A DNA stretch of 64,000 nucleotides from an uncultured Alphaproteobacteria bacterium (GCA_902582755.1 CACHSZ010000002.1:80151-144150); one strand, 5' to 3'. Positions 22,085-37,028 are shown, counted from the first letter of the stretch. The notes: generated by a model not told the origin, from the sequence alone. A program made the numbers and translations.

Positions 22085-23050
22085 ATGAAAAAAATTGCTT
22101 CAATTATTCTTGCCTCTGTAGCGCTTTTTGCTACTTCAGCGAAGGCAGAATACAAATTTAACTTCGTAATGCACAGTGATACGAACAATGCTTTCTGGGC
22201 AGCTGTTCATAAAGGTTTTAAAGATGCTTGTGCACAAATTAATGCTGATTGCCAAATGTTAACTCTTTCAGGTGATGGAGATCAACAAGAGCAATTACAA
22301 AACTTAGAGTCTTCAATAGCTCAAGGTGTTGATGGTATCGTAACTACAATTACTAACCCAACTATCTTTGATGCTGCAGTTGATGAAGCATTAGCTGCTG
22401 GTATTCCAGTAATTACAGCTAATACTGATGATCCAGAAGGTGCTGCTGGTAGTAACAGACTAGCATATGTTGGACAAGACTTAGAAGCAGCTGGTTATGA
22501 ATTAACAGCTAATCTTTCTGAAATGTTTCCTGATGGAGATATTCACGTTTTAATCGGTGTTGCAGACATGAACCAATCATGGGCATACACTAGAGGAAAC
22601 GGTATTGCACGTTTCATGGAAGATTACAAAGCGGCTAACCCTGATAGAAAAGTAACTTATGAGAAAATCGAGTCAGGTCTAGATCTTTCAACTGTTGGAA
22701 ACAGAGTGGCAGCTTATGTTCAAGCTAACCCAAATACAACTGCATATCTTGATGTAGGTTTCTGGGAAGCTGGTGCGGCTGCAGCAGTAAGAAACTTAGG
22801 TTATGGACCTGGTGAAATTCTTCTTGCTGGTTTCGACTTAGTTGACGTAGTTTTCGAAGAAATGGACAAAGGTTATGTTCAACTAACAGTTGACCAACAG
22901 CCATACTACCAAGGTTACATGTCAGTTCACCAATTATACTTAATGAACAAGTATGGTTTAAGTGCACTAGATATCAATACTGGTAAAGCTATGATTGGTC
23001 CTGATGATGTTGAAACAATCAGATCATTCAAAGGAATGTCAGTTAGATAA
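22085..23050 (+). CDS. periplasmic sugar-binding protein (type I PBP)
   Basis: Signal peptide MKKIASIILASVALFATSAKA. Contains GVDGIV and LAGFD. AGGAGGA Shine-Dalgarno upstream. Confidence 0.85.
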   Translation: MKKIASIILASVALFATSAKAEYKFNFVMHSDTNNAFWAAVHKGFKDACAQINADCQMLTLSGDGDQQEQLQNLESSIAQGVDGIVTTITNPTIFDAAVDEALAAGIPVITANTDDPEGAAGSNRLAYVGQDLEAAGYELTANLSEMFPDGDIHVLIGVADMNQSWAYTRGNGIARFMEDYKAANPDRKVTYEKIESGLDLSTVGNRVAAYVQANPNTTAYLDVGFWEAGAAAAVRNLGYGPGEILLAGFDLVDVVFEEMDKGYVQLTVDQQPYYQGYMSVHQLYLMNKYGLSALDINTGKAMIGPDDVETIRSFKGMSVR

Positions 23051-23059
23051 ATATCTTAA

Positions 23060-23091
23060 CCAGGCTCTTTAAATAGAGCCTGGTTTTTTTT
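23060..23091 (+). terminator. intra-operon hairpin/terminator between the binding-protein and permease genes
   Basis: CCAGGCTCT-ttaaat-AGAGCCTGG (9 bp) followed by 8 T. Confidence 0.75.
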
Positions 23092-23105
23092 AAAATAAAA
23101 AAAAT

Positions 23106-24086
23106 ATGAGTAAAAATTATAGTCTTAGAAGTTTATTAGTAAGACCAGAAGTAGCAACTTTCTTAATGTTTCTAGCAATAATGATCGGATTTTATATTGC
23201 TAATGAAAGATTTTTAGATGCAAGAAATATAAGAATAGTTATGGGTATTACACCCGAATATATTATTGTTGCTATTGGGATTGCAATATTAATGATCTCA
23301 GGTGAATTTGATTTATCTGTAGGCTCTGTTTTTGCATTAGTCCCGATGACTATTGTGCAAATGGTGCATCAAGGGATACCACCTTGGTTCGCTATTTTTC
23401 TAGGATTAATGATTGGTATTATTGTTGGTTTTGTTAATGGATTTATTACCTTAAGATTTGGAATTCCTTCTTTCATAGCAACTCTTGGAATGCTCTATAT
23501 TGCTAGAAGTCTTACAACTGTAGCTACTGCAGGATTTCCACCACCATTTCCTCATATTTTACCAAATGAGTTATTCGTTTATCAATTTGAGTTATTTAGA
23601 GCTTCCTTGTACTGGGCTCTTTTAGTTGCCGTAGTTTTAGGTGTTATGCTTCACAGAAGTAATGTTGGTAATTGGATCTATGCAACTGGCGGAGATCAAA
23701 ACGCTGCATCTTCAATGGGAATAAAGACTGGAAACGTTAAAATGTTTTGTTTCATCTTATGTGGTTTCTTAGCTGGCTTTGCTGGAATGATTCAAACATT
23801 TAGATTGGAAGCACCATTACCATCTCAAGGATACTTATTAGAACTAGAGTCAATTGCTGCAGCAGTTATTGGTGGCGTCAGTTTATTTGGAGGTATCGGA
23901 ACAGTTTTTGGTGCCGTTATTGGCGCAATACTAATCAGGTTTTTAGAAAGTGGAATCATTATGGCTAGAATAGATGCTGAATGGTTTAGAGCAGGTTTAG
24001 GTTCTTTAATTATTATAGCCGTCGTGTTTAATACTTATATAAGTAGAAGAGCGACGCGAATTGGTCAAAACAAGGCAAAGGATTAA
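23106..24086 (+). CDS. ABC sugar transporter permease (RbsC type)
   Basis: Polytopic membrane protein with GGVSLFGGIGT motif. Homologous to 18716-19723. Confidence 0.88.
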   Translation: MSKNYSLRSLLVRPEVATFLMFLAIMIGFYIANERFLDARNIRIVMGITPEYIIVAIGIAILMISGEFDLSVGSVFALVPMTIVQMVHQGIPPWFAIFLGLMIGIIVGFVNGFITLRFGIPSFIATLGMLYIARSLTTVATAGFPPPFPHILPNELFVYQFELFRASLYWALLVAVVLGVMLHRSNVGNWIYATGGDQNAASSMGIKTGNVKMFCFILCGFLAGFAGMIQTFRLEAPLPSQGYLLELESIAAAVIGGVSLFGGIGTVFGAVIGAILIRFLESGIIMARIDAEWFRAGLGSLIIIAVVFNTYISRRATRIGQNKAKD

Positions 24087-24088
24087 AG

Positions 24089-24826
24089 ATGGAAGATATA
24101 ATAGTTTGTGAGGGTTTAAACAAATACTATTCAGGAGTTCATGCTTTAAAAGATTTAAGCTTAAAGATAAAAAAAGACTCTGTTGTTGGTCTTATTGGAG
24201 ACAATGGTGCTGGTAAATCAACATTAATTAAAATTTTATCTGGAGCACATCAACCTGATTCAGGTCATATATATTTTGAAGGTAATAAGGTTAAATTTAA
24301 ATCTACAAAAGAAGCAATGAATTTAGGCATTGAAACAATTTATCAGTATTCAGCTTTGATCCCTGAAATGTCTATTGCAAGAAATATTTTTATTGGACGT
24401 GAACAAACTCAATATAATGTTGGCAATTTTGGTTTGATGAAAACTAAAACCATGCAGGACGATGCTATGAAAGCATTAACAGATGTAGAATTGCATCTTC
24501 GATCTCCAGATACACCAGTTAACCAATTATCTGGAGGGGAAAGACAAGGTGTTGTCATTGCAAGAGCAATGTATTTTAAATCAAAAGTTTTAATATTAGA
24601 CGAACCAACAAACCACCTATCAGTAAAAGAAACAAATAAAGTACTAAGGTTTGTAGAAGGATTAAAAAGCCAAGGCGTAACATCAATATTTATTACTCAC
24701 AACTTGAGTCATGTGTATCCAATTGCTGATCATTTATGTGTAATGGCAAGAGGTGAAAAAATTGCTGATTTGGATAAAAAGGATACAACAATAGATCATC
24801 TCACTGATTTATTAGTAAATGGATAA
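24089..24826 (+). CDS. ABC transporter ATP-binding protein (CUT2 type, single NBD)
   Basis: Walker A GDNGAGKST, signature LSGGERQ, Walker B LILDEPT. Confidence 0.9.
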   Translation: MEDIIVCEGLNKYYSGVHALKDLSLKIKKDSVVGLIGDNGAGKSTLIKILSGAHQPDSGHIYFEGNKVKFKSTKEAMNLGIETIYQYSALIPEMSIARNIFIGREQTQYNVGNFGLMKTKTMQDDAMKALTDVELHLRSPDTPVNQLSGGERQGVVIARAMYFKSKVLILDEPTNHLSVKETNKVLRFVEGLKSQGVTSIFITHNLSHVYPIADHLCVMARGEKIADLDKKDTTIDHLTDLLVNG

Positions 24827-24840: not shown

Positions 24841-25776
24841 ATGATTAGTGATGCGCAAATAAAACAATATAACCAAGAAGGTTATACGATCGTTGAAAAT
24901 GTTTTTAGTATGGATGAGTTAAATCCAATATTAAATGAATTTGAAGAAATTGTTGATGATTTTGCAGAAAAAGCTTTTCAAGCTGGAAAAATTACAAACA
25001 AACATGATGATAAAGATGTTTTTAAAAGACTAGCTGCTCTCGAAAGAGATTTTAAAGGTTCTTCAGTTTTAATTCATCATAGAGGTGAATTAAAACCAGC
25101 ACTTGCTAACTTATGGGGATCAAAAAAACTTTTAGATATGGTTGAAAATTGGGTTGGCAAAGATATTTCTGGTCATCCAGTTTGGAATATTAGATCTAAA
25201 ACACCTCAGACAGCTAGGATGACAGTTCCATGGCACCAAGATTCTGCTTATTTAAAAGATGGAGCAGAAAAAACCACTCAGCCTGCTGCGTGGATTCCAT
25301 TTCTTGATGTAAATAAACATAATGGATGCATGCAAGTTGTTCCTGGGGGACATAGACCTGAAAGAGTTTTGAATCATAAATTAGAAAAGAAAGATGGTTC
25401 AGTAAAAGATTCTTGGTATTTATTTATTGAAGACAAAGATATTCCAGAGGAGAAAGTTGTTACTTGTGAAATGAAGGCTGGTTCAGTTTTATTTTTACAT
25501 CAATTAGTTCCTCATCGATCACTTGAAAATTTATCTGAGGATGTAAGATGGAGTGTTGACCTAAGATTTCAAAATCCAAAAGATGAAGCTGGTTTTCATA
25601 CTGGTTTGGTTGATCCAATCATAATGAGAAAATCAGAAGACCCAAGCTATACAGCTGATTGGGATTCTTGGTTTAAAGGTTATGAAGAAGAACACACTAA
25701 ATTTAGAGGGACTTCAAAAAAAGACCAATTTGACTCCACAGTTGATGGGTCATGGTTAGATCGTTGGGATAATTAA
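24841..25776 (+). CDS. PhyH-family Fe(II)/2-oxoglutarate dioxygenase
   Basis: YNQEGYTIVENVF N-terminus, HxD triad WHQDSAY, NGCMQVVPGGH, and distal His in LVPHRS. The track TTG start at 24829 is actually the GGGAGGA Shine-Dalgarno; the ATG is at 24841. Confidence 0.8.
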   Translation: MISDAQIKQYNQEGYTIVENVFSMDELNPILNEFEEIVDDFAEKAFQAGKITNKHDDKDVFKRLAALERDFKGSSVLIHHRGELKPALANLWGSKKLLDMVENWVGKDISGHPVWNIRSKTPQTARMTVPWHQDSAYLKDGAEKTTQPAAWIPFLDVNKHNGCMQVVPGGHRPERVLNHKLEKKDGSVKDSWYLFIEDKDIPEEKVVTCEMKAGSVLFLHQLVPHRSLENLSEDVRWSVDLRFQNPKDEAGFHTGLVDPIIMRKSEDPSYTADWDSWFKGYEEEHTKFRGTSKKDQFDSTVDGSWLDRWDN

Positions 25777-25790: not shown

Positions 25791-26774
25791 ATGGAAGTTA
25801 ATCTCGATGATTGGTACAGACCAGAAGTCGACAGAAAAAAATTAAAAACCTTAAGTAAAAGAAGAGATCTACCTGGACTAATCCATTTCTTTTTTTATTT
25901 TTTATCTTTATTTGCATCAGGTTATCTAGCGTACCTAACTTTAGGAACTTGGTGGACATATTTGTTCTTTTTTATTTACGGTACAATTTACGCTTTTAGT
26001 GTAGCGAACTGGCACGAAACTGTTCATCGAACTGCTTTTAAGACACGTTGGATAAATGAATTTTTTTATCACATCAGTTCTTTCATGTGTGATTTTGAAG
26101 GATTTAGATGGCGTTGGAGTCATACTTTTCATCACTCAAAAACAATGCAAACTGAAGATGATTATGACCACGAAATACAAGTCTCAAGACCAATAGAACT
26201 ACTTGCATTTTTCTTAAATTTTATTCCTTTAACAGATTTATTATATCCACATAAATTAATTAAATTCGAAGTCTTAAAACATGCGTTTGGAAAATTTACT
26301 CCAGTTATTGATATAACTGCTCCAAAAGAAGAAAAGAAAAAAATTCTTTGGAACTCAAGATTGTATGTCTTTATTTGGGTATTAGTAATTGTATACTCTT
26401 TTTACATAGGTTCTTTCTTACCAATAATTTATATTATTTTACCAACTTATATTGGGAAACCAATTTGGTTTGCAGTTAATGTAACTCAACATCTGGCAGC
26501 AAAAGTTGACACAAAGGATCATCGTCTCAGCACATATTCTGTGAGAATTAATCCAGTTCTAAGTTTCCTATATTGGCACATGGAATACCATTTAGAACAT
26601 CATATGTTTCCAATGGTACCATCATATAATTTGAAGAAATTAAGAAAAGAAATTGATAACGAGTTGCCGAAGCCATTCACCAGTCTCTATGATTTTTATA
26701 AAAAAGTTTTACCAGCAGTTATTGCCTTAGCAACTGATCAAAATAAATATTATAAAGTAAATTTAAATAACTAA
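25791..26774 (+). CDS. membrane fatty-acid-desaturase/hydroxylase-family di-iron protein
   Basis: Three His boxes, HETVH (Hx3H), HTFHH (Hx2HH) and HLEHH (Hx2HH), plus several TM helices. Confidence 0.8.
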   Translation: MEVNLDDWYRPEVDRKKLKTLSKRRDLPGLIHFFFYFLSLFASGYLAYLTLGTWWTYLFFFIYGTIYAFSVANWHETVHRTAFKTRWINEFFYHISSFMCDFEGFRWRWSHTFHHSKTMQTEDDYDHEIQVSRPIELLAFFLNFIPLTDLLYPHKLIKFEVLKHAFGKFTPVIDITAPKEEKKKILWNSRLYVFIWVLVIVYSFYIGSFLPIIYIILPTYIGKPIWFAVNVTQHLAAKVDTKDHRLSTYSVRINPVLSFLYWHMEYHLEHHMFPMVPSYNLKKLRKEIDNELPKPFTSLYDFYKKVLPAVIALATDQNKYYKVNLNN

Positions 26775-26776: not shown

Positions 26777-27202
26777 TTACCAGGAACCAGAATTCTCCAT
26801 TGATTTCCAAGGTTCTTGTTCTGGTAAAGATTCTCCTTCTTGTAAGATTTCAATAGAAATCCCATCAGGTGATCGCACAAATGCCATATGTCCATCACGA
26901 GGAGGTCTGTTAATTGTAACACCATTGTCCATTAATTTTTGACACACATCATAAATATTACTAACACTATAAGCTAGATGACCAAAGTTTCTGCCACCAG
27001 AATATTTTTCTGGATCCCAGTTATAGGTTAATTCTAATAAACCAGTTTTTTCATCACTATTTTCAGCAGCTAAAAAAATTAGTGTAAATTTTCCTTTTTC
27101 GTTTTCAATTCTTCTAACTTCTTTTAGACCAAGTTTATTACAATAAAAATCAAGTGAAGCATCGACATTTTCAACCCTAACCATTGTGTGTAAATATTTC
27201 AT
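26777..27202 (-). CDS. gloA: lactoylglutathione lyase (glyoxalase I)
   Basis: HTMVRVENVDASLDFY N-terminus, ELTYNW and GHLAY. VOC-fold size (141 aa). Confidence 0.88.
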   Translation of the reverse strand: MKYLHTMVRVENVDASLDFYCNKLGLKEVRRIENEKGKFTLIFLAAENSDEKTGLLELTYNWDPEKYSGGRNFGHLAYSVSNIYDVCQKLMDNGVTINRPPRDGHMAFVRSPDGISIEILQEGESLPEQEPWKSMENSGSW

Positions 27203-27422: not shown

Positions 27423-28718
27423 ATGAATATTTTAAATTTTGTAATTAAGAAAATTTACCTAATTACTTTATCTTTTTTTCTATCATTTGGTTTTATATCA
27501 AGCAGCTATGCGATTGATATAACGATTTGGGATTTAAGTGGTAGAAATGGTCAGGATGAATTTTATGATAATCTTAACAAGGAATACAAAAAAATTAATC
27601 CTGATGTAAATATAATTTTACAAACATTTGAAAATGAAGCTTACAAAACTCAAATTCAAGTAGCCTTAAATGGTAATGATGGACCGGATGTATTTTTTAA
27701 CTGGTTTGGAGAAGATAGTGCTCGTTTAGCAAGAGCGGGATTAGCATTAGATATCACTCCTTACGCAAATGTTGAGGGTGGCTACGGTAATTACATAAGT
27801 GAAGGATTATCAAATACAACAGCTGTTAATGGTAAAATATATGGAGTTCCAAATACTTCAGTATCAAAATATTTTCACTATGACCCTGCTTTTTTTGAAG
27901 CAAATAGTTTGGAAGTTCCAAAAACATTTGATGATTTATTAAATCTTTGTAAAGACATCAGAGCAATTGATTCCTCAATTGTTCCATGGCCTCTAGGAAA
28001 CTCAGAAAGATGGAAGCTTAATCACGTTATAACTATGTTAAACCAAAGAGTTGTAGGTGAAGAAAATACTGCGGCAGATTATAACTTATCTGCATCAGAA
28101 GATGAGTTATTTACTAACCCAGCGTATGTTGAGGCTTGGCAAAAAGTTGTAGATCTGCAAGATGCAGGTTGTTTCCAAGATGCTCCAAACGCTACACATC
28201 CAGATCTAACAAGATCAATGTTTGCATCACAAATTTCACCAATGATTTATTGTGGTACATGGTGTGGAGGTATCTTTAATGGTGAAGGTTTTTCTGACTT
28301 TAGCTATTTTAGATTCCCAGAAGTAGTTGGTGGTGCTGGTGCAGCAACTGTAGGTTTCTTAGTTCCATCAGGTATGATGGTATCAGCAAAAACACCTCAT
28401 CCAGAAATTGCAGCACATGTTGCCTCGTTTATGGTTTCAGATGATATGGCATTGCAAGCAGCTGAACTAATGGGTTTCATGCCTTCTAATCCAACAAAAA
28501 TTGGCGAAATGAGTAATCCAACTCATTGGTTTAATTTTTATGTTAATGATATTGCAGACAAAACAGGTCATGTAAATGTTTTGGATGTTTTATTAGAAGC
28601 TAATGTTTCAAATGCTTATCTTGATATGGGTACTGAAATTCTAAATAGAACGAAGACTCCACAAGAAGCTATGGATTTTATTAGGCAGGTTGCTTTAGAA
28701 GCTAAAGCAGCGATGTAA
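27423..28718 (+). CDS. ABC transporter extracellular solute-binding protein, family 1 (CUT1 sugar type)
   Basis: Signal-peptide-like N-terminus ending SSSYA. About 430 aa, the size and composition of MalE/UgpB-type binding proteins. The track TTG at 27411 lies in the GGGAGGA Shine-Dalgarno; the ATG is at 27423. Confidence 0.85.
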   Translation: MNILNFVIKKIYLITLSFFLSFGFISSSYAIDITIWDLSGRNGQDEFYDNLNKEYKKINPDVNIILQTFENEAYKTQIQVALNGNDGPDVFFNWFGEDSARLARAGLALDITPYANVEGGYGNYISEGLSNTTAVNGKIYGVPNTSVSKYFHYDPAFFEANSLEVPKTFDDLLNLCKDIRAIDSSIVPWPLGNSERWKLNHVITMLNQRVVGEENTAADYNLSASEDELFTNPAYVEAWQKVVDLQDAGCFQDAPNATHPDLTRSMFASQISPMIYCGTWCGGIFNGEGFSDFSYFRFPEVVGGAGAATVGFLVPSGMMVSAKTPHPEIAAHVASFMVSDDMALQAAELMGFMPSNPTKIGEMSNPTHWFNFYVNDIADKTGHVNVLDVLLEANVSNAYLDMGTEILNRTKTPQEAMDFIRQVALEAKAAM

Positions 28719-28728
28719 ATATTTTATT

Positions 28729-28762
28729 AATTTCGGCTATTTCTTAATAGCCGAAATTTTTT
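28729..28762 (+). terminator. intra-operon hairpin/terminator after the binding-protein gene
   Basis: 13-bp stem AATTTCGGCTATT / AATAGCCGAAATT with loop tctt, running into a T-rich tract that ends at the permease ATG. Confidence 0.7.
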
Positions 28763-30779: not shown

Positions 30780-30780
30780 T

Positions 30781-31701
30781 ATGCCAAAATTATTAACTAC
30801 AGAACAAATGGCAGAATTTGCCAGCAGTGGATGTCTATTTTTTGAGGAACTAATTGATGAACAAACTAATAAAGAATTTTTAGACGATATTGGTCATACC
30901 AGTGTAGAAAATGTTGAGAGTGTTCAAACATATTTTGATAATATAAAGTCAACTAGCAGCATTCCAAGAATACCAGCTGGAACTCCACTTAAAGACTCGT
31001 ATCCTAAGAATTCACCTCTTGAAAAAATTTTAAAAAATGAGGTTGTAGATGGAGCAATAAAAAGCTTAGTTGGATCTAATCCACTTGTAGATCACCAGGC
31101 TCTTCATTTAACTTTTCCAACTAAATATTTCAAAGGAGCCAATCAAAGACAAATGTCTCAACAAAATCATCAGGATAGCACTATTGATCCAAGATCTACA
31201 TTTGACATTCAGGTTTTCTATTTTCCAACCGAGGTAACAAAAGAAATGGGAGGTACAAGATATCATCCTGGAACTCATTTACGAGTTGTTAATGAGTTTG
31301 GTATTGCAAAATATCAGAATATTAAAGGCCAAAAGAGTATTGTTTGTAAACCAGGCACAGTTGGAATATTTCATAACGGATTGTGGCATGGCGCAGGTGT
31401 GAATTTCTCTGAAGAAATTAGATATATGTTTAAAGTAAGGTTACAACCAACAGAGAAACAAGAATTATTATGGGATCCAGAAAAAAAATATCAGCCCTTA
31501 CCAAATAGAGCACTTTATTGGTCTGATGAAGTTAAGGAAGTAACCATCAATGATATTTTAATGAGGTCCTATCCTTGGCAAGAAGCAGATACAAATAGAC
31601 TTGATAAAATAAATGTTGTCAAGTTTTGGAGGTTATTAACTGGTCACAAGAAAATGGATGTTGACTATTGGCTTACAAGAATTGAAAACGAATTATATTA
31701 A
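30781..31701 (+). CDS. PhyH-like Fe(II)/2-oxoglutarate dioxygenase (divergent)
   Basis: LTTEQMAEFASSGCLFF N-terminus, HxD in NHQDSTID, GGTRYHPGTH, and distal His in GLWHGAGVN. Confidence 0.7.
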   Translation: MPKLLTTEQMAEFASSGCLFFEELIDEQTNKEFLDDIGHTSVENVESVQTYFDNIKSTSSIPRIPAGTPLKDSYPKNSPLEKILKNEVVDGAIKSLVGSNPLVDHQALHLTFPTKYFKGANQRQMSQQNHQDSTIDPRSTFDIQVFYFPTEVTKEMGGTRYHPGTHLRVVNEFGIAKYQNIKGQKSIVCKPGTVGIFHNGLWHGAGVNFSEEIRYMFKVRLQPTEKQELLWDPEKKYQPLPNRALYWSDEVKEVTINDILMRSYPWQEADTNRLDKINVVKFWRLLTGHKKMDVDYWLTRIENELY

Positions 31702-33206
31702 TTGAAATTTCTTTCATCACCTTTAAATGGAACAACATCACATGTTTCTTGGTACCATGAAAGCATTTTTTCTTTTAAGTTTTTAAGCTCTAATGCATAT
31801 TGTGGATCGTCAATAACATTATTAATTTCTCCAGGATCTTCAATTAAATTATAAAGTTCATCTTTTTCGTAAGCTCTTTTTATATATTTAAATTTTTTAT
31901 TTCTGCACATTGTTGCTTTGGTGTGCATTAAAATTTCATCCTCTTTACTTTGTAAGTTTACTCTTGGAAAATATAAGCCATGGGGTAAATTTAAACTTTG
32001 ACTTTCATTTGCTTGTCTCTCTAATCTAAGCCTGCCACCTTCTGTAAATACTTCTTCTCTATGATTATCAGTTTTCTGTTCTATAAAATTTTTAATACTT
32101 TTGCCAAAATGCCAATATGAAGGATTGATATTACTGTAATCATATATTGTCCCAGCAATATCAATTAATTCTATCATTGTGTCACTTATACCATTTAATG
32201 TATTTTTACTTTTTGGTGGTTTAATTACAAGAGGTACATTCGTAAGACAATCCTGAAAAGTATTTTGTGTTTTTTCCACCAAATTGTAATCACCTGTAAA
32301 GTCACCATGATCAGATAAAAAAATTATTAAAGTATCGTCATACAAATTACTTTCTTTAAGTTGATTGACTAAAAGTCCAAATTGATAGTCTACTCTTGAA
32401 CACATACCAAGATATACCGCTCGCAATTCATTCCAACGTTCATCAGTCCAATCTTGCATTCTTTGTCCATCCATTATTCCTTTTAAAAGACTTGGCTTGT
32501 CCTCCCATGTTTTGTATTGATATCTGTTAGGTATCAAATTTCTATCAATTGAAGAGAACCATGGATCCTCAACACAGTAAGGGGGATGCGGATAACCAAG
32601 TGGTAGAAATAAACAGAATGGTTTTTCTTTTTTATAATCTTTTATGAAATCTAATGCTCCATAAACCATGGACCAATCATCATCAAAATAAATATCCTTA
32701 TCTTTTTTATCTAATTTTCCTTTAAAGAAACTATAATAATTATCTCCATCTTTAGGCCCTCTCCATGATAGATCTCCACCATGTGTACCTGGTTGTTGAG
32801 TGTAATTCCATTTTTTAAAATCTCTATCAGTTGGTTCAAAATAAATATCACAATGATTACGATATCCTTCCTGACCTGCTATTAAATCATTTTTTCCACC
32901 CCACCAAATAAAGAAATCATCATCTTTTAGCTCTGATAAAATACTAGAGTCACCCTGATCTGTATGTAACATATAATGCATTGTTCTATGACCATGAACA
33001 TGTGGATACCATCCAGTCATAAATGAACAACGACTTGGTGTACAAACTGTTGCTTGGCAAAAAGCATTCTTAAATGCAATTGCATCTTCTTTAATAATAT
33101 TATCTAAATTAGGAGTTTTTGCACCTGGATATTCTAGATATCCGAGCATATCTCCTCTCCACTGATCGGGGTTAAAAATAACAATATTCGGTTTTTTCTG
33201 GTTCAT
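31698..33206 (-). CDS. Cys-type sulfatase (S1 / alkaline-phosphatase superfamily), no signal peptide
   Basis: Formylglycine motif CTPSRCSFMTGWYP. Metal ligands are present in NPDQWRGD and LSDHGDF. The catalytic fold starts at about residue 6 (PNIVIFNPDQ). Confidence 0.88.
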   Translation of the reverse strand: MNQKKPNIVIFNPDQWRGDMLGYLEYPGAKTPNLDNIIKEDAIAFKNAFCQATVCTPSRCSFMTGWYPHVHGHRTMHYMLHTDQGDSSILSELKDDDFFIWWGGKNDLIAGQEGYRNHCDIYFEPTDRDFKKWNYTQQPGTHGGDLSWRGPKDGDNYYSFFKGKLDKKDKDIYFDDDWSMVYGALDFIKDYKKEKPFCLFLPLGYPHPPYCVEDPWFSSIDRNLIPNRYQYKTWEDKPSLLKGIMDGQRMQDWTDERWNELRAVYLGMCSRVDYQFGLLVNQLKESNLYDDTLIIFLSDHGDFTGDYNLVEKTQNTFQDCLTNVPLVIKPPKSKNTLNGISDTMIELIDIAGTIYDYSNINPSYWHFGKSIKNFIEQKTDNHREEVFTEGGRLRLERQANESQSLNLPHGLYFPRVNLQSKEDEILMHTKATMCRNKKFKYIKRAYEKDELYNLIEDPGEINNVIDDPQYALELKNLKEKMLSWYQETCDVVPFKGDERNFN

Positions 33207-33286: not shown

Positions 33287-34537
33287 ATGAGATTAATAAA
33301 ATTATTTTTAAGTGTCATTTTTTTGTTAGGGATATCATTTAACGCCAATGCAGTAACAATCAAATGGCTTGGATTGGCACAAGATGACTCTGCGCATAAA
33401 GAAGACATTGATGCAGCAATTGCTGATTGGGAAGCAAAAACTGGCCATGAAGTTAAGTGGCAGTATATGGCTGGTCCAGACTTAAAACTAAAATTACCTA
33501 CAATGTTGCAAAGTGACGATGCTCCACATTTATTTTACAGTTGGGGTGGAGGAGTTATGTTTGATCAAGCTGATGCTGGATTTTTACAAGACATTTCTGC
33601 TTTAGTTCCAGATAGTTATTTAGAAAATTTAAGTCCTGCAGCAGCAGATGCTTTTACATACAAAGGTGAAAGAGTTGGTCTGCCAAATTTATTTAACCAA
33701 GTAGTATTTTGGTACAACAAAGATTTAACTGAAAAAGCAGGAGTTGATCCTTCAAAGGTTGTTATGTGGAACGATCTTCTAGAAGTAGTAAAAGATATAA
33801 AAGATGCTGGCATAACACCAATTTGTGTTGGTGGTAAAAATAAATGGCCTATTCATTTCTATTGGACACTACTCCATGTAAGAAATGGAGGCAAGGCAGC
33901 TTTCTTTGACGCTTTAGAAAATGGCGGATGGGATAGAGAAGAATACATTAAATCTGGATATGAATTCCAACAGCTTGTTGACCTTGAGCCTTTTCAAGAT
34001 GGTTTTATGGCAGTTGAATATGGTGATGCTTCAGCAGCATTTGGTAATGGAGAGTGTGCTCTTCACCTAATGGGAAGTTGGGATTACAATGGTGCTAAAA
34101 GAAGAAGTACTTCTGGGGAAGGAATTCCTGATGATAGAATGGGAACATTCCAATTTCCTATGACTGAAAATGGAAAAGGAAATCCTTCAGATACACTTGG
34201 TGGAATTAATGGATGGTTAGTTTCTAAAAATGCACCAAAAGAAGCAGTCGATTTCTTAATGCATTATATCTCAATGAAATATCAATCAATGGGAGCAAAA
34301 AGTGGAGCGTATATGCCTATTTATAAAGGAGCTGAAACAGAAATGGGTAACAGATTCTTTAAACAGCAAGCGCTTAATGTTGCAAACTCAACCTTCCATT
34401 CTATTTTCTGGGATCAATATCTTGGAAGAGATATTGGTGAGGTTGTAAACGATGTTTCAGTTGAACTAGCAACTAAAGACATCACTCCAGAAGAAGCTTG
34501 TCAAAGAGTACAAGAGGCTTGGGAGTTTAATCAATAA
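33287..34537 (+). CDS. ABC transporter extracellular solute-binding protein, family 1 (CUT1 sugar type)
   Basis: Signal peptide MRLIKLFLSVIFLLGISFNANA. 416 aa. GGGAGGA Shine-Dalgarno upstream. Confidence 0.85.
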   Translation: MRLIKLFLSVIFLLGISFNANAVTIKWLGLAQDDSAHKEDIDAAIADWEAKTGHEVKWQYMAGPDLKLKLPTMLQSDDAPHLFYSWGGGVMFDQADAGFLQDISALVPDSYLENLSPAAADAFTYKGERVGLPNLFNQVVFWYNKDLTEKAGVDPSKVVMWNDLLEVVKDIKDAGITPICVGGKNKWPIHFYWTLLHVRNGGKAAFFDALENGGWDREEYIKSGYEFQQLVDLEPFQDGFMAVEYGDASAAFGNGECALHLMGSWDYNGAKRRSTSGEGIPDDRMGTFQFPMTENGKGNPSDTLGGINGWLVSKNAPKEAVDFLMHYISMKYQSMGAKSGAYMPIYKGAETEMGNRFFKQQALNVANSTFHSIFWDQYLGRDIGEVVNDVSVELATKDITPEEACQRVQEAWEFNQ

Positions 34538-34546
34538 ATATCAATT

Positions 34547-34572
34547 AGAGGGGCAAATAATTTTGCCCCTCT
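34547..34572 (+). terminator. GC-rich hairpin after the binding-protein gene (attenuator or mRNA stabiliser; T-run displaced)
   Basis: 11-bp stem AGAGGGGCAAA-taat-TTTGCCCCTCT. The nearest T-run starts about 12 nt downstream, so it is not a textbook terminator. Confidence 0.5.
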
Positions 34573-34594
34573 CTATAAAAGTTATTTTTTTTGA

Positions 34595-35491
34595 ATGATA
34601 AAGAAAAACATCACATCTGCATTTGTTGAAAAATATTCCACAATAATCATTTTTTTAGTTCCAGCATTAACTTTATTTACTGTTTTTGTTGTTATGCCAA
34701 TTTTTGAAGCAGCTTATTTTAGTTTCTATCGGTGGAATGGAATGGGACCACCAGAAAAATATGTTGGATTTAAAAATTATGCTTTTTTATTTAAAAACGG
34801 AATTTTTTTAAATGCTCTGAAAAATAATTTTTGGATTATTTTTGTCTCACTCTTTATCCAATTACCCTTTGCGTTATTTCTAGCTCTTTTTTTAGCAAAT
34901 AATTTTAGGGGAGCAGCTATATTTAGAAGTTTATTTTTCTTACCATATATTTTAGCTGAAATTGTTGCCAGTTTGATTTGGGTTTATATTTACAAAGGAG
35001 ATTATGGATTAGTTGGTGCAATTTGGGGTTTGTTTGGAGCTGATGCGCCTTGGATTACTGCAGATAAAGAGTGGGCATTGACAGCTATACTAATAGTTGT
35101 CGTTTGGAAATATTTTGGAATACATATGATGATTATGATTTCAGGTCTTCAAGGTATATCTAAAGAAGTAATTGAAGCTGCAAAAATTGATGGTGCTGGA
35201 CCAGTAACAACTGCTTTAAGAATAAAAATTCCGATTTTGTGGCCAACAATTACTCTATCTATATTTCTTTCAACGCTCGGAAGTTTACAGCTATTTGATT
35301 TAATTATGCCTTTAACAATGGGAGGTCCATCAAATGTTACTCACTCAATGGTTACTTATTTGTACGATTTTGGTGTTGGAAGAATGAGACTTGGTTTTGG
35401 AAGTGCCATTAGTGTGGTAATTTTTATAATATGTTTTGTTGTTGCTTTAATTTATCAAACAACAATTTTAAAAGATAAAGGATATAACTAA
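34595..35491 (+). CDS. ABC sugar transporter permease (MalF/UgpA type)
   Basis: EAA loop EVIEAAKIDGAGPVTTALRIKIP. Six TM segments. Confidence 0.88.
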   Translation: MIKKNITSAFVEKYSTIIIFLVPALTLFTVFVVMPIFEAAYFSFYRWNGMGPPEKYVGFKNYAFLFKNGIFLNALKNNFWIIFVSLFIQLPFALFLALFLANNFRGAAIFRSLFFLPYILAEIVASLIWVYIYKGDYGLVGAIWGLFGADAPWITADKEWALTAILIVVVWKYFGIHMMIMISGLQGISKEVIEAAKIDGAGPVTTALRIKIPILWPTITLSIFLSTLGSLQLFDLIMPLTMGGPSNVTHSMVTYLYDFGVGRMRLGFGSAISVVIFIICFVVALIYQTTILKDKGYN

Positions 35492-36315
35492 TGCAATCAA
35501 AATTATCAAAATTTTATATGTATCTTTTCTTAACTTTCTTAGCAGGAATAATTTTAGTACCTTTATACTTAACTTTTATAAGTAGCTTTAAAACTTTAGG
35601 TGATTTAAGTTCTAATGTTATTGGATTGCCAAGAGAGTGGATTTTATCAAATTATACAGATGTTTTTGGTATGGAATATTTTTGGTCATTTGCCTGGAAT
35701 TCACTTGTATACGGAGTCTTAACAACAGTGTTAACTTTAATTTGTGCATCTATGGCAGCATTCGTATTCGCTCATATTAGATTTTTTGGAAATAGATTTT
35801 TATTTAATTATTTGTTGATTGGGTTAATGTTCCCTTTTGCCTCTGCAATCATTCCTTTATTTCTAAAGGTAAGAGATTTTGGATTACTTGGAACTTATTG
35901 GGCAGTAGTTTTACCTCAAATTGCATTTGGTCTTGGTTTTGCTATTTTACTTTTTAGAGGTTTTTTCAAACAAATACCACCAGAATTATTTGATGCCGCA
36001 TACGTTGATGGTTGTAATTATTCAAATTTCTTTTTCCGAATAACTATCCCGCTATCTGTTCCAATTTTCTCTACTGTAGCAGTTGTAACTTTTGTAACAA
36101 GCTGGAATAATTATCTACTTCCATTAATTATGGTTAGTAATGAGGAGTTATACCCTTGGCCTATGGGTATAATGTTTTTTAGAGGTGAGTATGACACAGA
36201 TTGGTCAATGGTTCTAACTTACGTTTCTTTAACATTGATACCTGCAATAGTATTTTTTCTTTTAGCTCAAAAATACATCATTGCTGGACTTACTGGTGGA
36301 GCAGTAAAAGAGTAA
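35491..36315 (+). CDS. ABC sugar transporter permease (MalG/UgpE type)
   Basis: EAA loop ELFDAAYVDGCNYSNFFFRITIP. TAATG overlap upstream. Confidence 0.88.
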   Translation: MQSKLSKFYMYLFLTFLAGIILVPLYLTFISSFKTLGDLSSNVIGLPREWILSNYTDVFGMEYFWSFAWNSLVYGVLTTVLTLICASMAAFVFAHIRFFGNRFLFNYLLIGLMFPFASAIIPLFLKVRDFGLLGTYWAVVLPQIAFGLGFAILLFRGFFKQIPPELFDAAYVDGCNYSNFFFRITIPLSVPIFSTVAVVTFVTSWNNYLLPLIMVSNEELYPWPMGIMFFRGEYDTDWSMVLTYVSLTLIPAIVFFLLAQKYIIAGLTGGAVKE

Positions 36316-37028
36316 TGCTGAAAGAAAATGAAGTAAAATTCTATAATCAAAATGGTTATTTAATTTTAAAGGATAAATTGGACAAGGAGACATTGTCAGA
36401 CTTAAAAAATTCAACGACTCAACTGATAGAAGAATTTAAAAAAAACCAATCAACTTTTATAAGAGATAAAAATAGAAATATATCTAAGCATGGTAAAATG
36501 TTTTTATCTAATCGTTGTGAAGATTTTCCTTTGATGGAAAAATTCACTAAGGGTAATTTTGTTAAATCTATTTGTAGGTCAATATTAGGTGAAAAAATTT
36601 ACTTATTTAATGAACAAGTAGTAAATAAGGAGCCACAAACTGAAAGTAAATTTGCGTGGCATCAAGATTCTGGTTATGTAGGACATGATCATAAGGTATA
36701 TCTATCTATTTGGATTGCTTTATGTGATACAAATGAAAATAATGGAGCATTAAGAATATTGCCAATAAATCTAGAAAGAGAAGCTAAGATTGAAGAACAT
36801 GTTTGGTCCGAACAATCATCAGATTTAAGTATGAAAGTTCAGGAAGAGAAGTCAATTTCGTGTACAATTGAGGAAGGTGGATTAGTCTTATTTTCGAGTA
36901 GAACACCTCATGCTTCTTTTCCAAATAAATCAAACAAAAACAGACCAGCATATTTATGTCAGTACTCATCTGAGCCAATTATACCTCCGCCCGGTTCAAA
37001 TAAAAAATTTAGAGCAGAGTTAATTTAA
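36315..37028 (+). CDS. PhyH-family Fe(II)/2-oxoglutarate dioxygenase
   Basis: FYNQNGYLILKD N-terminus, HxD in WHQDSGYV, and distal His in TPHASFPN. The start is at ATG 36315 (TAATG overlap); the track start 36201 lies inside the permease gene. Confidence 0.8.
   Translation: MLKENEVKFYNQNGYLILKDKLDKETLSDLKNSTTQLIEEFKKNQSTFIRDKNRNISKHGKMFLSNRCEDFPLMEKFTKGNFVKSICRSILGEKIYLFNEQVVNKEPQTESKFAWHQDSGYVGHDHKVYLSIWIALCDTNENNGALRILPINLEREAKIEEHVWSEQSSDLSMKVQEEKSISCTIEEGGLVLFSSRTPHASFPNKSNKNRPAYLCQYSSEPIIPPPGSNKKFRAELI

What the first reader, a model, noticed from the sequence alone, without database searches (positions are those of the whole stretch)
22085..37028. Three ABC importers each run directly into a PhyH-family Fe(II)/2-oxoglutarate dioxygenase
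The same architecture occurs three times within 15 kb on the + strand. First, the CUT2 system 22085-24826 is followed after 14 nt (a GGGAGGA Shine-Dalgarno) by PhyH 24841-25776. Second, the CUT1 system 27423-30486 is followed by a 92-aa ORF and then PhyH-like 30781-31701. Third, the CUT1 system 33287-36315 is followed by PhyH 36315-37028 with a TAATG stop/start overlap. All three dioxygenases keep the HxD...H iron triad (WHQDSAY, NHQDSTI, WHQDSGY, plus distal His). They are only distantly similar to each other by eye, so they are not recent tandem copies. Textbook sugar catabolism has no step for a 2OG dioxygenase. Characterised PhyH-family members hydroxylate or oxidatively remove groups on small polar molecules (phytanoyl-CoA, ectoine-type and phosphonate substrates, the aminoglycoside KanJ). 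One reading is an uptake-coupled oxidative unmasking system for modified sugars or polyols (methylated, sulfated/sulfonated or aminated). This fits the sulfatase, the desaturase-like oxygenase and the Gfo/Idh/MocA reductases nearby. I consider it the best candidate in the window for an undescribed pathway.
Basis: partly seen in the sequence, partly recalled or inferred. Interest (0 to 1): 0.72.

Follow-up and report, generated by a model that had tools for sequence, protein, structure and literature searches.

The report
SAR11 sugar importers paired with PhyH oxygenases
A variable sugar- and cyclitol-uptake island of the abundant ocean bacterium SAR11 carries three unrelated iron/2-oxoglutarate oxygenases that most likely strip blocking groups such as methyl ethers from imported sugars, and one of them always travels with a small, previously undescribed partner protein.

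Summary
The window comes from a Pelagibacteraceae (SAR11) genome. It has three ABC importers, each followed on the + strand by a PhyH-family (PF05721) oxygenase with an intact HxD...H...R site. The three oxygenases are anciently diverged (at most 26% identity).

The importer linkage differs by enzyme:
- PhyH1: CUT2 importer + PhyH1 + MocD-like di-iron oxygenase is invariant in about 55 SAR11 genomes. It recurs, rearranged and with a Rieske ferredoxin, in distant Alphaproteobacteria. A true IolD lies alongside, which points to a modified cyclitol.
- PhyH3: it groups (99/100 bootstraps) with experimentally verified sugar O-methyl-ether demethylases (FJS clade, NAR 2025). It is facultative: sister SAR11 loci join the importer directly to the next gene.
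- PhyH2: importer linkage exists only in SAR11. Its constant companion is the 92-aa ORF, adjacent in 72/72 testable loci, 63% identical between SAR11 and Streptomyces, and fused to the oxygenase in some lineages.

The most likely function is cytoplasmic oxidative unmasking of imported modified sugars and cyclitols, chiefly O-demethylation. Precedents exist (tauABCD, SqoD, FJS/PHYHD1, MahX), so this is a new variant of a known kind. The orf92-PhyH2 two-part oxygenase is the novel element. No substrate is established.

The parts
13663..13983 (+). Rieske-fold small protein, a possible MocE-like electron carrier for the di-iron oxygenase. It is atypical because both His ligands are missing.
   Evidence: Pfam Rieske E 2.6e-5. 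Best NCBIfam hit is the MocE family at 35.6 bits against a cut-off of 136. The sequence reads CTQ... and CVGCG where CxH and CxxH are expected. Canonical Rieske genes flank FAdes/PhyH1 in L061, L063, L082 and L091.
15046..16890 (+). IolD, the ring-cleaving hydrolase of inositol catabolism.
   Evidence: NCBIfam TIGR04377 equivalog, 769 bits against a cut-off of 715. Syntenic with the PhyH1 module in most SAR11 genomes, and directly upstream of the CUT2-PhyH1 unit in L065.
17970..20729 (+). CUT2 importer #0 (ATPase, permease, RbsB-like SBP). It is not followed by a PhyH.
   Evidence: Pfam. SBP best NCBIfam hit is RbsB at 177 bits against a cut-off of 337.
20822..21973 (+). Gfo/Idh/MocA oxidoreductase 1, part of the invariant SAR11 module 1.
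   Evidence: Pfam. Levoglucosan dehydrogenase and IolG hits are far below cut-off. Synteny.
22085..24826 (+). CUT2 importer #1: SBP 22085-23050, permease 23106-24086, ATPase 24089-24826.
   Evidence: Pfam. SBP best NCBIfam hit is the rhizopine-catabolism SBP at 98.5 bits against a cut-off of 420. The SBP has a signal peptide.
24841..25776 (+). PhyH1, an Fe(II)/2OG oxygenase.
   Evidence: PF05721 E 1.8e-30. HxD..H..R present. AF2 model pLDDT 78, PhyH-type fold, closest structures 13-20% identical. Conserved next to CUT2 and FAdes.
25791..26774 (+). Membrane di-iron oxygenase of the FA_desaturase family, MocD-like.
   Evidence: Pfam E 1.1e-33. His boxes HETVH, HTFHH and HLEHH. 36.6% identical to the first gene of an Agrobacterium operon: FAdes, MocE ferredoxin, FAD reductase, PanB-like, purU, folD.
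26777..27202 (-). Glyoxalase/VOC-family protein that closes module 1 in a convergent orientation.
   Evidence: Pfam. Invariantly syntenic with PhyH1-FAdes in SAR11. The metaldehyde cluster pairs the PhyH-family MahX with MahY, which that paper searched for using the Glyoxalase_4 profile.
27423..30486 (+). CUT1 importer #1: SBP 27423-28718, permeases 28763-29668 and 29668-30486. No ATPase.
   Evidence: Pfam. SBP closest solved relative is the ABC-transporter SBP 4g68, E 1.6e-33. No MalK-type ATPase in the window.
30501..30779 (+). orf92, a small partner subunit of PhyH2 with no known family.
   Evidence: No Pfam, NCBIfam or PDB match. 63.5% identical to the Streptomyces gene next to the PhyH2 homologue. 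Adjacent to a PhyH2-type gene in 70/72 testable loci by tblastn, plus 2 by phmmer. Fused to the oxygenase in P0484, P0540, P0554 and P0563.
30781..31701 (+). PhyH2, a divergent Fe(II)/2OG oxygenase from a small subfamily.
   Evidence: PF05721 E 2.7e-11. No NCBIfam hit. 353 representative clusters in 1.84 billion proteins. Best PDB sequence hit is fungal SptF, E 9e-6.
31698..33206 (-). Cytoplasmic Cys-type sulfatase, tail-to-tail with PhyH2 and divergent from importer #2.
   Evidence: Pfam Sulfatase E 3.5e-32. No signal peptide; CTPSR motif at residue 55. Sulfatases recur beside PhyH3-family genes.
33287..36315 (+). CUT1 importer #2: SBP 33287-34537, permeases 34595-35491 and 35491-36315. No ATPase.
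   Evidence: Pfam. The SBP matches PDB 8XBA, named 'XylA' by its depositors, over its full length, E 2.8e-96; next-best hits include a xylo-oligosaccharide binding protein (3zkk).
36315..37028 (+). PhyH3, an Fe(II)/2OG oxygenase sister to the verified sugar O-demethylase clade.
   Evidence: PF05721 E 6.6e-27. 28-33% identical to FJS and to the Acidisoma, Sphingomonas and Poribacteria demethylases, E down to 1.6e-37. Joint clade found in 99/100 bootstraps.
37028..38894 (+). Gfo/Idh/MocA oxidoreductase 2 (37028-38170) and ThuA (38181-38894).
   Evidence: Pfam. Same partners beside PhyH3 relatives at 75%, 74% and 45% identity, rearranged in the last case.
38918..40231 (+). Xylose isomerase XylA, the last gene of the island before ribF-ileS.
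   Evidence: NCBIfam PRK05474 688.7 bits against 459, and TIGR02630 651.7 bits against 533.

Best explanation
Window 22-40 kb is the variable part of a SAR11 carbohydrate and cyclitol utilisation island. It is built from three independent uptake-plus-tailoring cassettes. In each, a periplasmic binding protein and permeases import a chemically blocked sugar or cyclitol. A cytoplasmic PhyH-family Fe(II)/2-oxoglutarate oxygenase then hydroxylates a C-H next to the blocking group. The most likely target is an O-methyl ether, which then falls off as formaldehyde. The free sugar or cyclitol can then be used by the ordinary enzymes encoded alongside.

Module 1 (SBP weakly resembling the rhizopine SBP, CUT2 permease and ATPase, PhyH1, MocD-like di-iron oxygenase, VOC protein; Gfo/Idh/MocA and IolD upstream) handles a modified cyclitol.

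Module 3 (8XBA/XOS-type SBP, PhyH3, Gfo/Idh/MocA, ThuA, xylose isomerase) handles a modified pentose or xyloside. PhyH3 is an optional add-on that widens the substrate range.

Module 2 uses a two-part oxygenase, orf92 plus PhyH2, beside a cytoplasmic sulfatase. Its substrate is unknown.

Shown: gene content, intact catalytic residues, conservation of the partnerships, and the clade relationship of PhyH3. Inferred: the reaction type, all substrates, and the routing of formaldehyde into SAR11's tetrahydrofolate C1 oxidation.
For: Origin: SAR11, on a 247-kb contig.

Catalytic competence: HxD..H..R is intact in all three, and none has a signal peptide, whereas all four SBPs do.

PhyH1:
- Gfo>SBP>permease>ATPase>PhyH1>FAdes>Glyox< is invariant in about 55 SAR11 genomes.
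- The same unit occurs in a different neighbourhood at 75% identity.
- At 48-50% identity, alphaproteobacterial MAGs keep Rieske<, FAdes<, PhyH1>, then SBP, two permeases and ATPase, with Gfo nearby.
- CUT2 families top the neighbour count of distant homologues: BPD_transp_2 9, Peripla_BP_4 5, ABC_tran 4, FA_desaturase 3, GCV_T 3.
- A true IolD is syntenic.

C1 link:
- The Agrobacterium FAdes homologue heads an operon of MocE ferredoxin, FAD reductase, PanB-like, purU and folD.
- PanB-like genes flank PhyH genes in L001 and L005.
- SAR11 oxidises C1 units via THF (PMC3160333, title and abstract listing).

PhyH3:
- 28-33% identity to verified O-demethylases, which are themselves 48-65% identical to members of the PhyH3 hit list.
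- Monophyly in 99/100 bootstraps.
- The verified enzymes convert a sugar 2'-O-methyl ether to the free OH plus formaldehyde.
- The gene set PhyH3 + Gfo + ThuA + sulfatase + CUT1 is kept at 45% identity in a rearranged order.

PhyH2: obligate pairing with orf92 and natural fusions. The Streptomyces pair lies beside Gfo, a TIM-barrel gene and iolD/B/C.

General precedents:
- SqoD with a TRAP importer and the SquF reductase.
- MahX ether cleavage.
- SAR11 flexible islands carry transporter-plus-enzyme cassettes.
Against: - No substrate or activity is known for any of the three enzymes. At 30% identity, specificity and even reaction type can differ within PF05721, which includes hydroxylases, halogenases, epimerases and the deaminase KanJ.
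- PhyH3 is missing from four complete sister SAR11 loci, where the importer abuts Gfo_2 after 7-36 nt. The importer and downstream pathway therefore work without it.
- PhyH2-orf92 has no importer link outside SAR11: AraC regulator in 9 of 109 neighbours, ABC_tran in 2. Even within SAR11 it sometimes follows sulfatases instead of an importer.
- About half of the long distant PhyH1 loci show no ABC component nearby.
- The supporting alphaproteobacterial MAGs L082, L086 and L091 look closely related, so independent confirmations are few.
- The SAR11 genomes share synteny by descent.
- The window has no folD, purU, PanB-like or GCV_T gene and no MocF-type reductase.
- Its Rieske protein lacks the His ligands.
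- The tree is NJ on 248 columns and omits EctD and other PhyH clades.
Confidence: 0.55

Rival explanations
1. The logic is the same (a tailoring oxygenase for an imported solute) but the chemistry differs. Options are C-H hydroxylation of deoxy- or C-methyl-cyclitols and sugars, oxidative removal of sulfate esters to a keto or aldehyde sugar (AtsK-like) followed by Gfo/ThuA reduction, or KanJ-like oxidative deamination of inosamines and amino sugars.
For: - Sulfatases recur next to PhyH3-family genes, and the window sulfatase is cytoplasmic.
- The commonest SAR11 variant of this region is a CUT1 permease plus three sulfatases.
- Gfo/Idh/MocA and ThuA directly follow PhyH3, as a keto-sugar reductase would. 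SqoD/SquF is a precedent.
- The module-1 SBP's best family hit is the rhizopine (inosamine) SBP.
- PF05721 structural neighbours are mostly hydroxylases.
Against: - The nearest characterised relatives of PhyH3 are O-demethylases, not sulfate-ester or amine oxidases.
- A dedicated hydrolytic sulfatase is already present, which makes oxidative desulfation redundant.
- KanJ did not appear among the PDB sequence hits.
- C1-handling genes such as PanB-like, folD, purU and GCV_T recur around homologues.
Confidence: 0.25
2. The adjacency has no functional meaning. In a compact genome rich in ABC importers, and within a recombination-prone flexible island, PhyH genes simply landed after importers. They serve unrelated roles such as osmolyte or amino-acid hydroxylation.
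For: - PhyH3 is dispensable in sister loci.
- PhyH2-orf92 is a self-contained unit with its own AraC regulator in soil bacteria and no importer.
- About half of the distant PhyH1 loci lack ABC genes.
- The region is hypervariable.
- SAR11 islands shuffle cassettes.
Against: - Translational coupling is tight: a 14-nt gap with a Shine-Dalgarno sequence, and TAATG overlaps on both sides of PhyH3.
- All three landing after importers has a 0.2% permutation probability.
- The PhyH1 + CUT2 + FAdes + Rieske set survives rearrangement in larger genomes with 1.8-4 Mb contigs.
- The PhyH3 + Gfo + ThuA + sulfatase + CUT1 set survives rearrangement at 45% identity.
- Relatives sit after TRAP or beside MFS importers.
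Confidence: 0.12
3. PhyH3 is literally a 2'-O-methyl-ribonucleoside demethylase used for nucleoside salvage, like its verified relatives, and is not a carbohydrate-catabolic enzyme.
For: Its clade relationship with FJS and the Acidisoma, Sphingomonas and Poribacteria enzymes, all active on 2'-O-methyl nucleosides.
Against: - Identity is only 28-33%, and PhyH3 is sister to the verified clade, not inside it.
- Its partners are a CUT1 SBP whose relatives include a XOS-binding protein, Gfo/Idh/MocA, ThuA and xylose isomerase. There are no nucleoside hydrolase, phosphorylase or Bmp-type genes.
- The Novosphingobium gene closest to the verified Sphingomonas enzyme also sits among sugar genes: AKR, LLM monooxygenase, GH31, uxaC.
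- FJS has millimolar Km and broad tolerance, and free methyl sugars were never tested.
Confidence: 0.08

Closest known systems
FJS / PHYHD1-type 2'-O-methyl-nucleoside demethylases (PF05721; Stonkus et al., NAR 2025, PMC12709175)
   Same: Same Pfam family and same HxD..H site. PhyH3 shares 28-33% identity over nearly its full length, plus the motifs AWHQDSGYV, DHK.Y, EENG and QYS.EP. It forms a 99/100 clade with the four verified bacterial enzymes. The verified reaction is oxidative removal of a methyl ether from a sugar ring with formaldehyde release.
   Different: PhyH3 is a sister lineage, not nested among the verified enzymes. It is shorter (237 aa against 285 aa) and lacks the C-terminal helices. 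It sits in a pentose or xyloside uptake operon. PhyH1 (24%, E 1.5e-9) and PhyH2 (about none) are not members. No activity has been measured here.
Rhizopine catabolism moc genes (MocA, MocB, MocD, MocE, MocF; Sinorhizobium and Rhizobium; PMC10107442)
   Same: Module 1 and its distant relatives combine a CUT2 SBP whose best family hit is the rhizopine SBP, a Gfo/Idh/MocA dehydrogenase, an FA_desaturase-type oxygenase and a Rieske ferredoxin. The context is inositol-related, with IolD present.
   Different: All scores are far below the equivalog cut-offs: SBP 98.5 against 420, Rieske 35.6 against 136. There is no MocC, MocF or MocR in the window, and the window Rieske lacks its His ligands. A PhyH oxygenase is present, which the moc system does not have.
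Sulfoquinovose dioxygenase pathway (SqoD + SquF + TRAP importer; PMC10507154) and E. coli tauABCD (own knowledge)
   Same: The architecture and logic match: a binding-protein-dependent importer is encoded with an Fe(II)/2OG dioxygenase that removes a blocking group from the imported solute. In the SqoD case a reductase then restores a normal sugar. Compare PhyH3 followed by Gfo/Idh/MocA.
   Different: Those dioxygenases belong to the TauD family (PF02668), not PhyH (PF05721). They cleave C-S bonds of sulfonates. No sulfonate-related genes are present here.
MahX/MahS metaldehyde oxygenases (PF05721; PMC9676059)
   Same: These PhyH-family 2OG oxygenases cleave an ether or acetal by hydroxylating the adjacent C-H. 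MahX is encoded next to MahY, which that paper searched for with the Glyoxalase_4 profile. This resembles PhyH1...Glyox in the window.
   Different: The substrate is a xenobiotic, the genes are plasmid- and IS-borne, and there is no importer. Sequence similarity to the window PhyHs was not measured.
Cytochrome P450 carbohydrate demethylases of marine Bacteroidetes (6-O-methyl-D-galactose; PMC6292453)
   Same: The proposed physiological role is the same: oxidative O-demethylation of an algal methyl sugar, releasing formaldehyde, so that ordinary sugar catabolism can proceed.
   Different: The enzyme class is unrelated: haem P450 with ferredoxin and a reductase. The genes lie in polysaccharide utilisation loci, not ABC-importer operons.

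Membership tests
PhyH family (Pfam PF05721) Fe(II)/2OG oxygenases | Profile score above the Pfam gathering threshold (22 bits). | tested here: met
   PhyH1 107.3, PhyH2 44.6, PhyH3 95.6 bits.
PhyH family (Pfam PF05721) Fe(II)/2OG oxygenases | HxD...H iron triad, plus an Arg after the distal His that binds the 2OG C5 carboxylate. | tested here: met
   HQD in all three. Distal His at VPH, LWH and TPH. The Arg aligns in one column. The role of the Arg is assigned from family knowledge.
PhyH family (Pfam PF05721) Fe(II)/2OG oxygenases | Double-stranded beta-helix fold. | tested here: met
   PhyH1 only: AF2 pLDDT 78, pTM 0.82, Foldseek probability 1.00 to H11, PtlH, PHYHD1 and EctD. PhyH2 and PhyH3 were not modelled.
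FJS/PHYHD1-type sugar 2'-O-methyl-ether demethylases | Groups phylogenetically with experimentally verified members. | tested here: inconclusive
   PhyH3 is sister to the clade of four verified bacterial enzymes, with the joint clade at 99/100 NJ bootstraps, but at only 28-33% identity. PhyH1 and PhyH2 fall outside. Other PhyH clades such as EctD were not in the tree.
FJS/PHYHD1-type sugar 2'-O-methyl-ether demethylases | 2OG-dependent conversion of a 2'-O-methyl nucleoside to the nucleoside plus formaldehyde. | not testable with these tools
   Requires an enzyme assay.
Rhizopine catabolism (moc) system | MocB-type SBP reaching the NCBIfam NF052284 equivalog cut-off (420 bits). | tested here: not met
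   98.5 bits for SBP 22085-23050, although this is its best hit.
Rhizopine catabolism (moc) system | MocDEF three-component oxygenase: FA_desaturase-type MocD, MocE Rieske ferredoxin, MocF reductase. | tested here: not met
   A MocD-like gene is present, 36.6% identical to the Agrobacterium operon gene. The Rieske scores 35.6 against 136 bits, lacks the His ligands, and lies 12 kb away. No FAD reductase is in the window.
TauD-family importer-linked dioxygenases (tauABCD, SqoD) | TauD/TfdA domain (PF02668). | tested here: not met
   Only PF05721 hits were found for all three.
Complete CUT1 ABC importer | SBP, two permeases and a MalK/MsiK-type ATPase. | tested here: not met
   The SBP and two permeases are present twice. 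No such ATPase is anywhere in the 64-kb window. A shared ATPase encoded elsewhere is the presumed solution (inference).
Canonical iol inositol pathway | IolG, IolE, IolD, IolB, IolC and IolJ together. | tested here: not met
   Only IolD passes its equivalog cut-off (769 against 715). The Gfo proteins score about 60 bits against 355 for IolG. No IolE, IolB, IolC or IolJ appeared in the Pfam annotation of the island.
Two-component orf92 + PhyH2 oxygenase (proposed here; no published family) | The small protein is always adjacent to, or fused with, the PhyH2-type oxygenase. | tested here: met
   70/72 testable loci by tblastn, plus 2 by phmmer. Fusions in both orders. The only plasmid record with orf92 is also the only one with PhyH2.

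The most novel reading that the evidence does not exclude
The ocean's most abundant heterotroph uses a set of three unrelated PhyH-family oxygenases, coupled to high-affinity importers, to strip methyl and possibly other blocking groups from algal methylated sugars and cyclitols. The released formaldehyde feeds its C1-oxidation pathway. This would be an unrecognised sink for methylated carbohydrates in marine dissolved organic matter. One of the three, orf92 plus PhyH2, would represent a previously undescribed heteromeric class of Fe(II)/2OG oxygenase that depends on a roughly 90-aa partner domain conserved from SAR11 to Streptomyces.
Probability: 0.3. Interest if true: 0.75.

Novelty: new variant of a known kind. 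Interest (0 to 1): 0.58.

Why it matters
SAR11 dominates surface-ocean heterotrophy, yet it has few glycoside hydrolases and a small known substrate range. If these cassettes demethylate or otherwise unmask modified sugars and cyclitols, they would extend the compounds SAR11 can use. They would link carbohydrate use to its known C1 oxidation. They would also help explain why this island varies so much between cells, since each cassette would match a different algal product.

The clade relationship of PhyH3 to the FJS demethylases suggests that the physiological substrates of many bacterial 'phytanoyl-CoA dioxygenase family proteins' are methylated sugars rather than nucleosides.

Separately, orf92 marks a conserved, unannotated partner domain of a 2OG oxygenase subfamily found in marine and soil bacteria. 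It gives a concrete handle on an uncharacterised enzyme type.

Tried and rejected
- SqoD-like sulfoquinovose dioxygenase for PhyH3: prompted by AKR, LLM, GH31 and sulfatase neighbours of the sphingomonad homologues. Rejected as membership because SqoD is TauD-family. Kept as a functional analogy.
- Curated equivalogs (ectoine hydroxylase, PhnY-type methylphosphonate hydroxylase, PtlH, chlorinating enzyme): all NCBIfam scores are 16-42 bits against cut-offs of 226-550.
- orf92 as a phosphopantetheine carrier protein (GDSD motif): the Ser is not conserved across 33 family members, and there is no PP-binding hit at E up to 10.
- orf92-PhyH2 as a formylglycine-generating system for the neighbouring sulfatase: sulfatase is not among the top-25 recurrent neighbour families in soil loci.
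- Structure of orf92: only a single-sequence AF2 run was allowed. pLDDT 50.6 is unusable, so no fold search was run.
- PDB 8XBA 'XylA': no paper was found in the library, so the ligand of the closest SBP relative remains unknown to me.
- Plasmid tblastn for PhyH1 and PhyH3 gave only distant hits of 36% identity or less.
- Literature searches for SAR11 with PhyH, inositol or xylose found nothing specific.
- Fold search of PhyH1 gave only generic family neighbours.
- Search of the rest of the window for C1 genes, a CUT1 ATPase or further PhyH copies found none.

Full report
**1. Observation**

ORF listing, Pfam and direct reading confirm every coordinate in the finding.

- Module 1. A CUT2 importer (SBP 22085-23050, permease 23106-24086, single-domain ATPase 24089-24826) is followed after 14 nt (TTTTGGGAGGAATT) by PhyH1, 24841-25776 (PF05721, E 1.8e-30).
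- Module 2. A CUT1 importer (SBP 27423-28718, permeases to 30486) is followed by orf92 (30501-30779). One nucleotide later comes PhyH2, 30781-31701 (E 2.7e-11).
- Module 3. A second CUT1 importer (33287-36315) overlaps PhyH3, 36315-37028 (E 6.6e-27), by TAATG. PhyH3 overlaps the next gene in the same way.

All three keep HxD, the distal His and an aligned Arg. They are old paralogues: PhyH1/PhyH3 share 23% identity, PhyH1/PhyH2 share 26% over 89 aa, and PhyH2/PhyH3 are not significantly similar.

Permuting the island's 23 gene units puts all three PhyH units directly behind an ABC block in 0.22% of trials. This test was done post hoc.

Two CUT1 systems have no ATPase in the window, and there are no further PhyH genes.

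**2. Context**

Exact-sequence look-ups place the window on a 247-kb Pelagibacteraceae (SAR11) contig, and all the proteins belong to large marine clusters.

Window 8.7-40.2 kb is a carbohydrate and cyclitol island. In order it holds:
- GalT and GalE
- an SDR, an FAH-family hydrolase and an FMN-dependent lactate dehydrogenase
- a Rieske-like protein and two 2-hydroxyacid dehydrogenases
- a true IolD (TIGR04377, 769 bits against a cut-off of 715)
- a fourth importer (CUT2 #0) and Gfo/Idh/MocA 1
- the three modules
- Gfo/Idh/MocA 2, ThuA and a true xylose isomerase

Housekeeping genes flank the island on both sides.

The sulfatase at 31698-33206(-) has no signal peptide and a CTPSR motif. It should therefore act in the cytoplasm on an imported solute. 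All four SBPs have signal peptides.

**3. PhyH1**

A scan of species-representative genomes found 579 relatives.

- In about 55 SAR11 single-cell genomes the string Gfo>SBP>permease>ATPase>PhyH1>FAdes>Glyox< is invariant. The DNA downstream is hypervariable.
- At 75% identity the same unit lies in another neighbourhood, with FAdes inverted.
- At 48-50% identity, alphaproteobacterial MAGs with 1.8-4 Mb contigs carry Rieske<, FAdes<, PhyH1>, then SBP, two permeases and ATPase, with a Gfo/Idh/MocA gene nearby.
- Among 106 neighbours of distant homologues, the top families are BPD_transp_2 (9), Peripla_BP_4 (5), ABC_tran (4), further PhyH (4), GCV_T (3) and FA_desaturase (3).
- About half of the long distant loci show no ABC gene.

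The tightest partner is the FA_desaturase-type oxygenase. Its Agrobacterium homologue (36.6% identity) heads an operon of MocE-family ferredoxin, FAD oxidoreductase, PanB-like hydroxymethyltransferase, purU and folD, next to a sugar importer. That is what an oxidative demethylase feeding tetrahydrofolate C1 oxidation would need.

The SBP's best family hit is the rhizopine SBP, and the Rieske's best hit is MocE. Both are far below cut-off. The window Rieske also lacks its His ligands. Module 1 therefore works like a moc-type modified-cyclitol system but is not a member of it.

The PhyH1 model (pLDDT 78) has only generic family neighbours at 13-20% identity.

**4. PhyH3**

Relatives at 74-75% identity keep the order SBP, two permeases, PhyH3, Gfo, ThuA.

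At 45% identity the same gene set (two Gfo/Idh/MocA genes, ThuA, a sulfatase, a CUT1 importer and an MFS transporter) surrounds a lone PhyH in a different arrangement.

More distant relatives follow a TRAP importer, face a sulfatase, or sit with AKR, LLM monooxygenase, MFS and sulfatase genes. One at 50% identity lies between a GH2 gene and a PanB-like gene, beside CUT1 importers.

In four complete sister SAR11 loci, a CUT1 importer of the same type (SBP 55-57% identical) abuts Gfo_2 after 7-36 nt with no PhyH3; a fifth locus is truncated before that junction. PhyH3 is therefore an accessory gene.

A full-text search for 'PF05721' led to Stonkus et al. 2025 (PMC12709175). They show that FJS, PHYHD1 and several bacterial PhyH-family enzymes demethylate 2'-O-methyl ribonucleosides, releasing formaldehyde. 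Using their supplementary sequences:
- PhyH3 is 28-33% identical to the four bacterial enzymes, with E down to 1.6e-37.
- Those enzymes are 48-65% identical to members of my PhyH3 hit list.
- PhyH3's marine clade is sister to theirs, with 99/100 bootstraps for the joint clade.

Only nucleosides, nucleotides and phytanoyl-CoA are reported as tested, and FJS has millimolar Km.

The module-3 SBP is a full-length relative of PDB 8XBA 'XylA', and its next-best solved relatives include a xylo-oligosaccharide binding protein. The operon ends in xylose isomerase. A methylated pentose or xyloside is my best guess for the substrate.

**5. PhyH2 and orf92**

PhyH2 belongs to a small subfamily: 353 representative clusters in 1.84 billion proteins.

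Its one plasmid homologue, on a Streptomyces plasmid (35% identity), is followed by an 87-aa gene that is 63.5% identical to orf92. That pair lies beside Gfo, a TIM-barrel gene and iolD/B/C.

A metagenome scan seeded on orf92 motifs gave 80 loci. In 70 of 72 testable loci by tblastn, and in the other two by phmmer, a PhyH2-type gene is adjacent. The order is orf92>PhyH2 in low- and mid-GC marine contigs, and PhyH2>orf92 in high-GC soil contigs.

Natural fusions exist in both orders: P0484 and P0540 have orf92 at the N-terminus, and P0554 and P0563 have it at the C-terminus.

orf92 has no Pfam, NCBIfam or PDB relative.

Outside SAR11 the only recurrent neighbour is a divergent AraC regulator, and ABC genes are rare. 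Within SAR11 the pair usually follows CUT1 #1 but sometimes follows sulfatases. So orf92 belongs to the oxygenase, and the importer link is lineage-specific.

**6. Mechanism and rivals**

The best-supported reading is cytoplasmic oxidative unmasking of imported modified sugars and cyclitols, chiefly O-demethylation (confidence 0.55).

- Shown: architecture, catalytic residues, the conserved partnerships and the PhyH3 clade.
- Inferred: the reaction, the substrates and the fate of formaldehyde.

Rivals:
- Other tailoring chemistry such as hydroxylation, oxidative desulfation or deamination (0.25).
- Meaningless adjacency in a shuffled island (0.12).
- PhyH3 as a literal nucleoside demethylase (0.08).

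**7. Comparison and novelty**

Importer-linked 2OG dioxygenases are known: tauABCD (own knowledge) and SqoD. PhyH-family ether cleavage and sugar O-demethylation are known: MahX and FJS/PHYHD1. SAR11 islands are known to shuffle transporter-plus-enzyme cassettes, though the paper describing this does not mention PhyH. Marine carbohydrate demethylation has so far been ascribed to P450s.

The finding is therefore a new variant of a known kind. The orf92-PhyH2 two-part oxygenase is the element without precedent.

Noticed in passing
window 30501-30779; L009 9801-10064; L092-L171; P0484, P0540, P0554, P0563: orf92 is a family-less protein of about 90 aa. It is 63.5% identical between SAR11 and Streptomyces, always lies next to a PhyH2-type oxygenase, and is fused to it in some lineages. 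The conserved signature is RQ.VLVL..W..DG.G..GD..PP..G..AL..GW.L.Q..G.E.
   Followed up: yes
window 27203-38170 compared with L012-L069 and L092-L105: The stretch between the glyoxalase gene and Gfo_2/ThuA/XylA is hypervariable among SAR11 cells. The commonest variant is a CUT1 permease plus three or four sulfatases. Others carry CUT1#1 + orf92-PhyH2, with or without the sulfatase, CUT1#2 and PhyH3. Some go straight to Gfo_2 or XylA.
   Followed up: partly
window 13663-13983: This Rieske-fold protein has lost both His ligands (CTQ and CVGCG replace CxH and CxxH) but keeps several Cys residues. Whether it still binds an Fe-S cluster is unclear.
   Followed up: partly
window 15046-16890 and 10863-17948: A true IolD is present without IolE, IolB, IolC or IolJ. 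It is flanked by two 2-hydroxyacid dehydrogenases, an SDR, an FAH-family hydrolase (diketo-deoxy-rhamnonate-hydrolase-like, 389 bits against a 500 cut-off) and an FMN lactate dehydrogenase. This may be a non-canonical downstream route for the ring-opened product.
   Followed up: no
L001 6046-7736; L005 10725-11558; L172 11599-14227: PanB-like hydroxymethyltransferase genes recur beside PhyH, FA_desaturase and FA_hydroxylase oxygenases. In Agrobacterium the PanB-like gene is followed by purU and folD. It may act as a formaldehyde or hydroxymethyl-to-THF capture enzyme rather than in pantothenate synthesis.
   Followed up: partly
window 27423-30486 and 33287-36315: Both CUT1 importers lack an ATPase gene, and none of the MalK/MsiK type exists in the 64-kb window. 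The only other ABC ATPase hit, 53615-55363(-), 582 aa, is weak and looks exporter-sized.
   Followed up: partly
window 31698-33206 (-): This Cys-type sulfatase (CTPSR motif) has no signal peptide, and no formylglycine-generating enzyme was seen in the annotated parts of the window (about 1-47 kb). How it is matured in SAR11 is open.
   Followed up: no
window 26777-27202 (-): This glyoxalase/VOC-family gene is invariantly linked to PhyH1-FAdes in SAR11. The arrangement parallels the metaldehyde cluster, where the PhyH-type MahX is paired with MahY (searched for with the Glyoxalase_4 profile in that paper).
   Followed up: partly
L172 2193-6955: On the Agrobacterium plasmid, a TauD/TfdA dioxygenase lies on the same strand directly after an ABC importer (SBP, two permeases, ATPase). 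This is another example of the importer-plus-2OG-dioxygenase layout.
   Followed up: no
L010 (Novosphingobium plasmid) 9013-12035: The gene closest to the verified Sphingomonas colocasiae 2'-O-methyl-nucleoside demethylase sits with an aldo-keto reductase, an LLM monooxygenase, GH31, uxaC and mannonate genes, not nucleoside genes. The bacterial FJS clade may act on methylated sugars in vivo.
   Followed up: partly
window 4525-5079: A stand-alone HNH endonuclease ORF lies among housekeeping genes upstream of the island.
   Followed up: no
L177-L179, 5101-6600 (-): A conserved 499-aa protein with no Pfam hit lies between a Gfo/Idh/MocA gene and a sulfatase, in the rearranged locus of the PhyH3 relative at 45% identity.
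   Followed up: no
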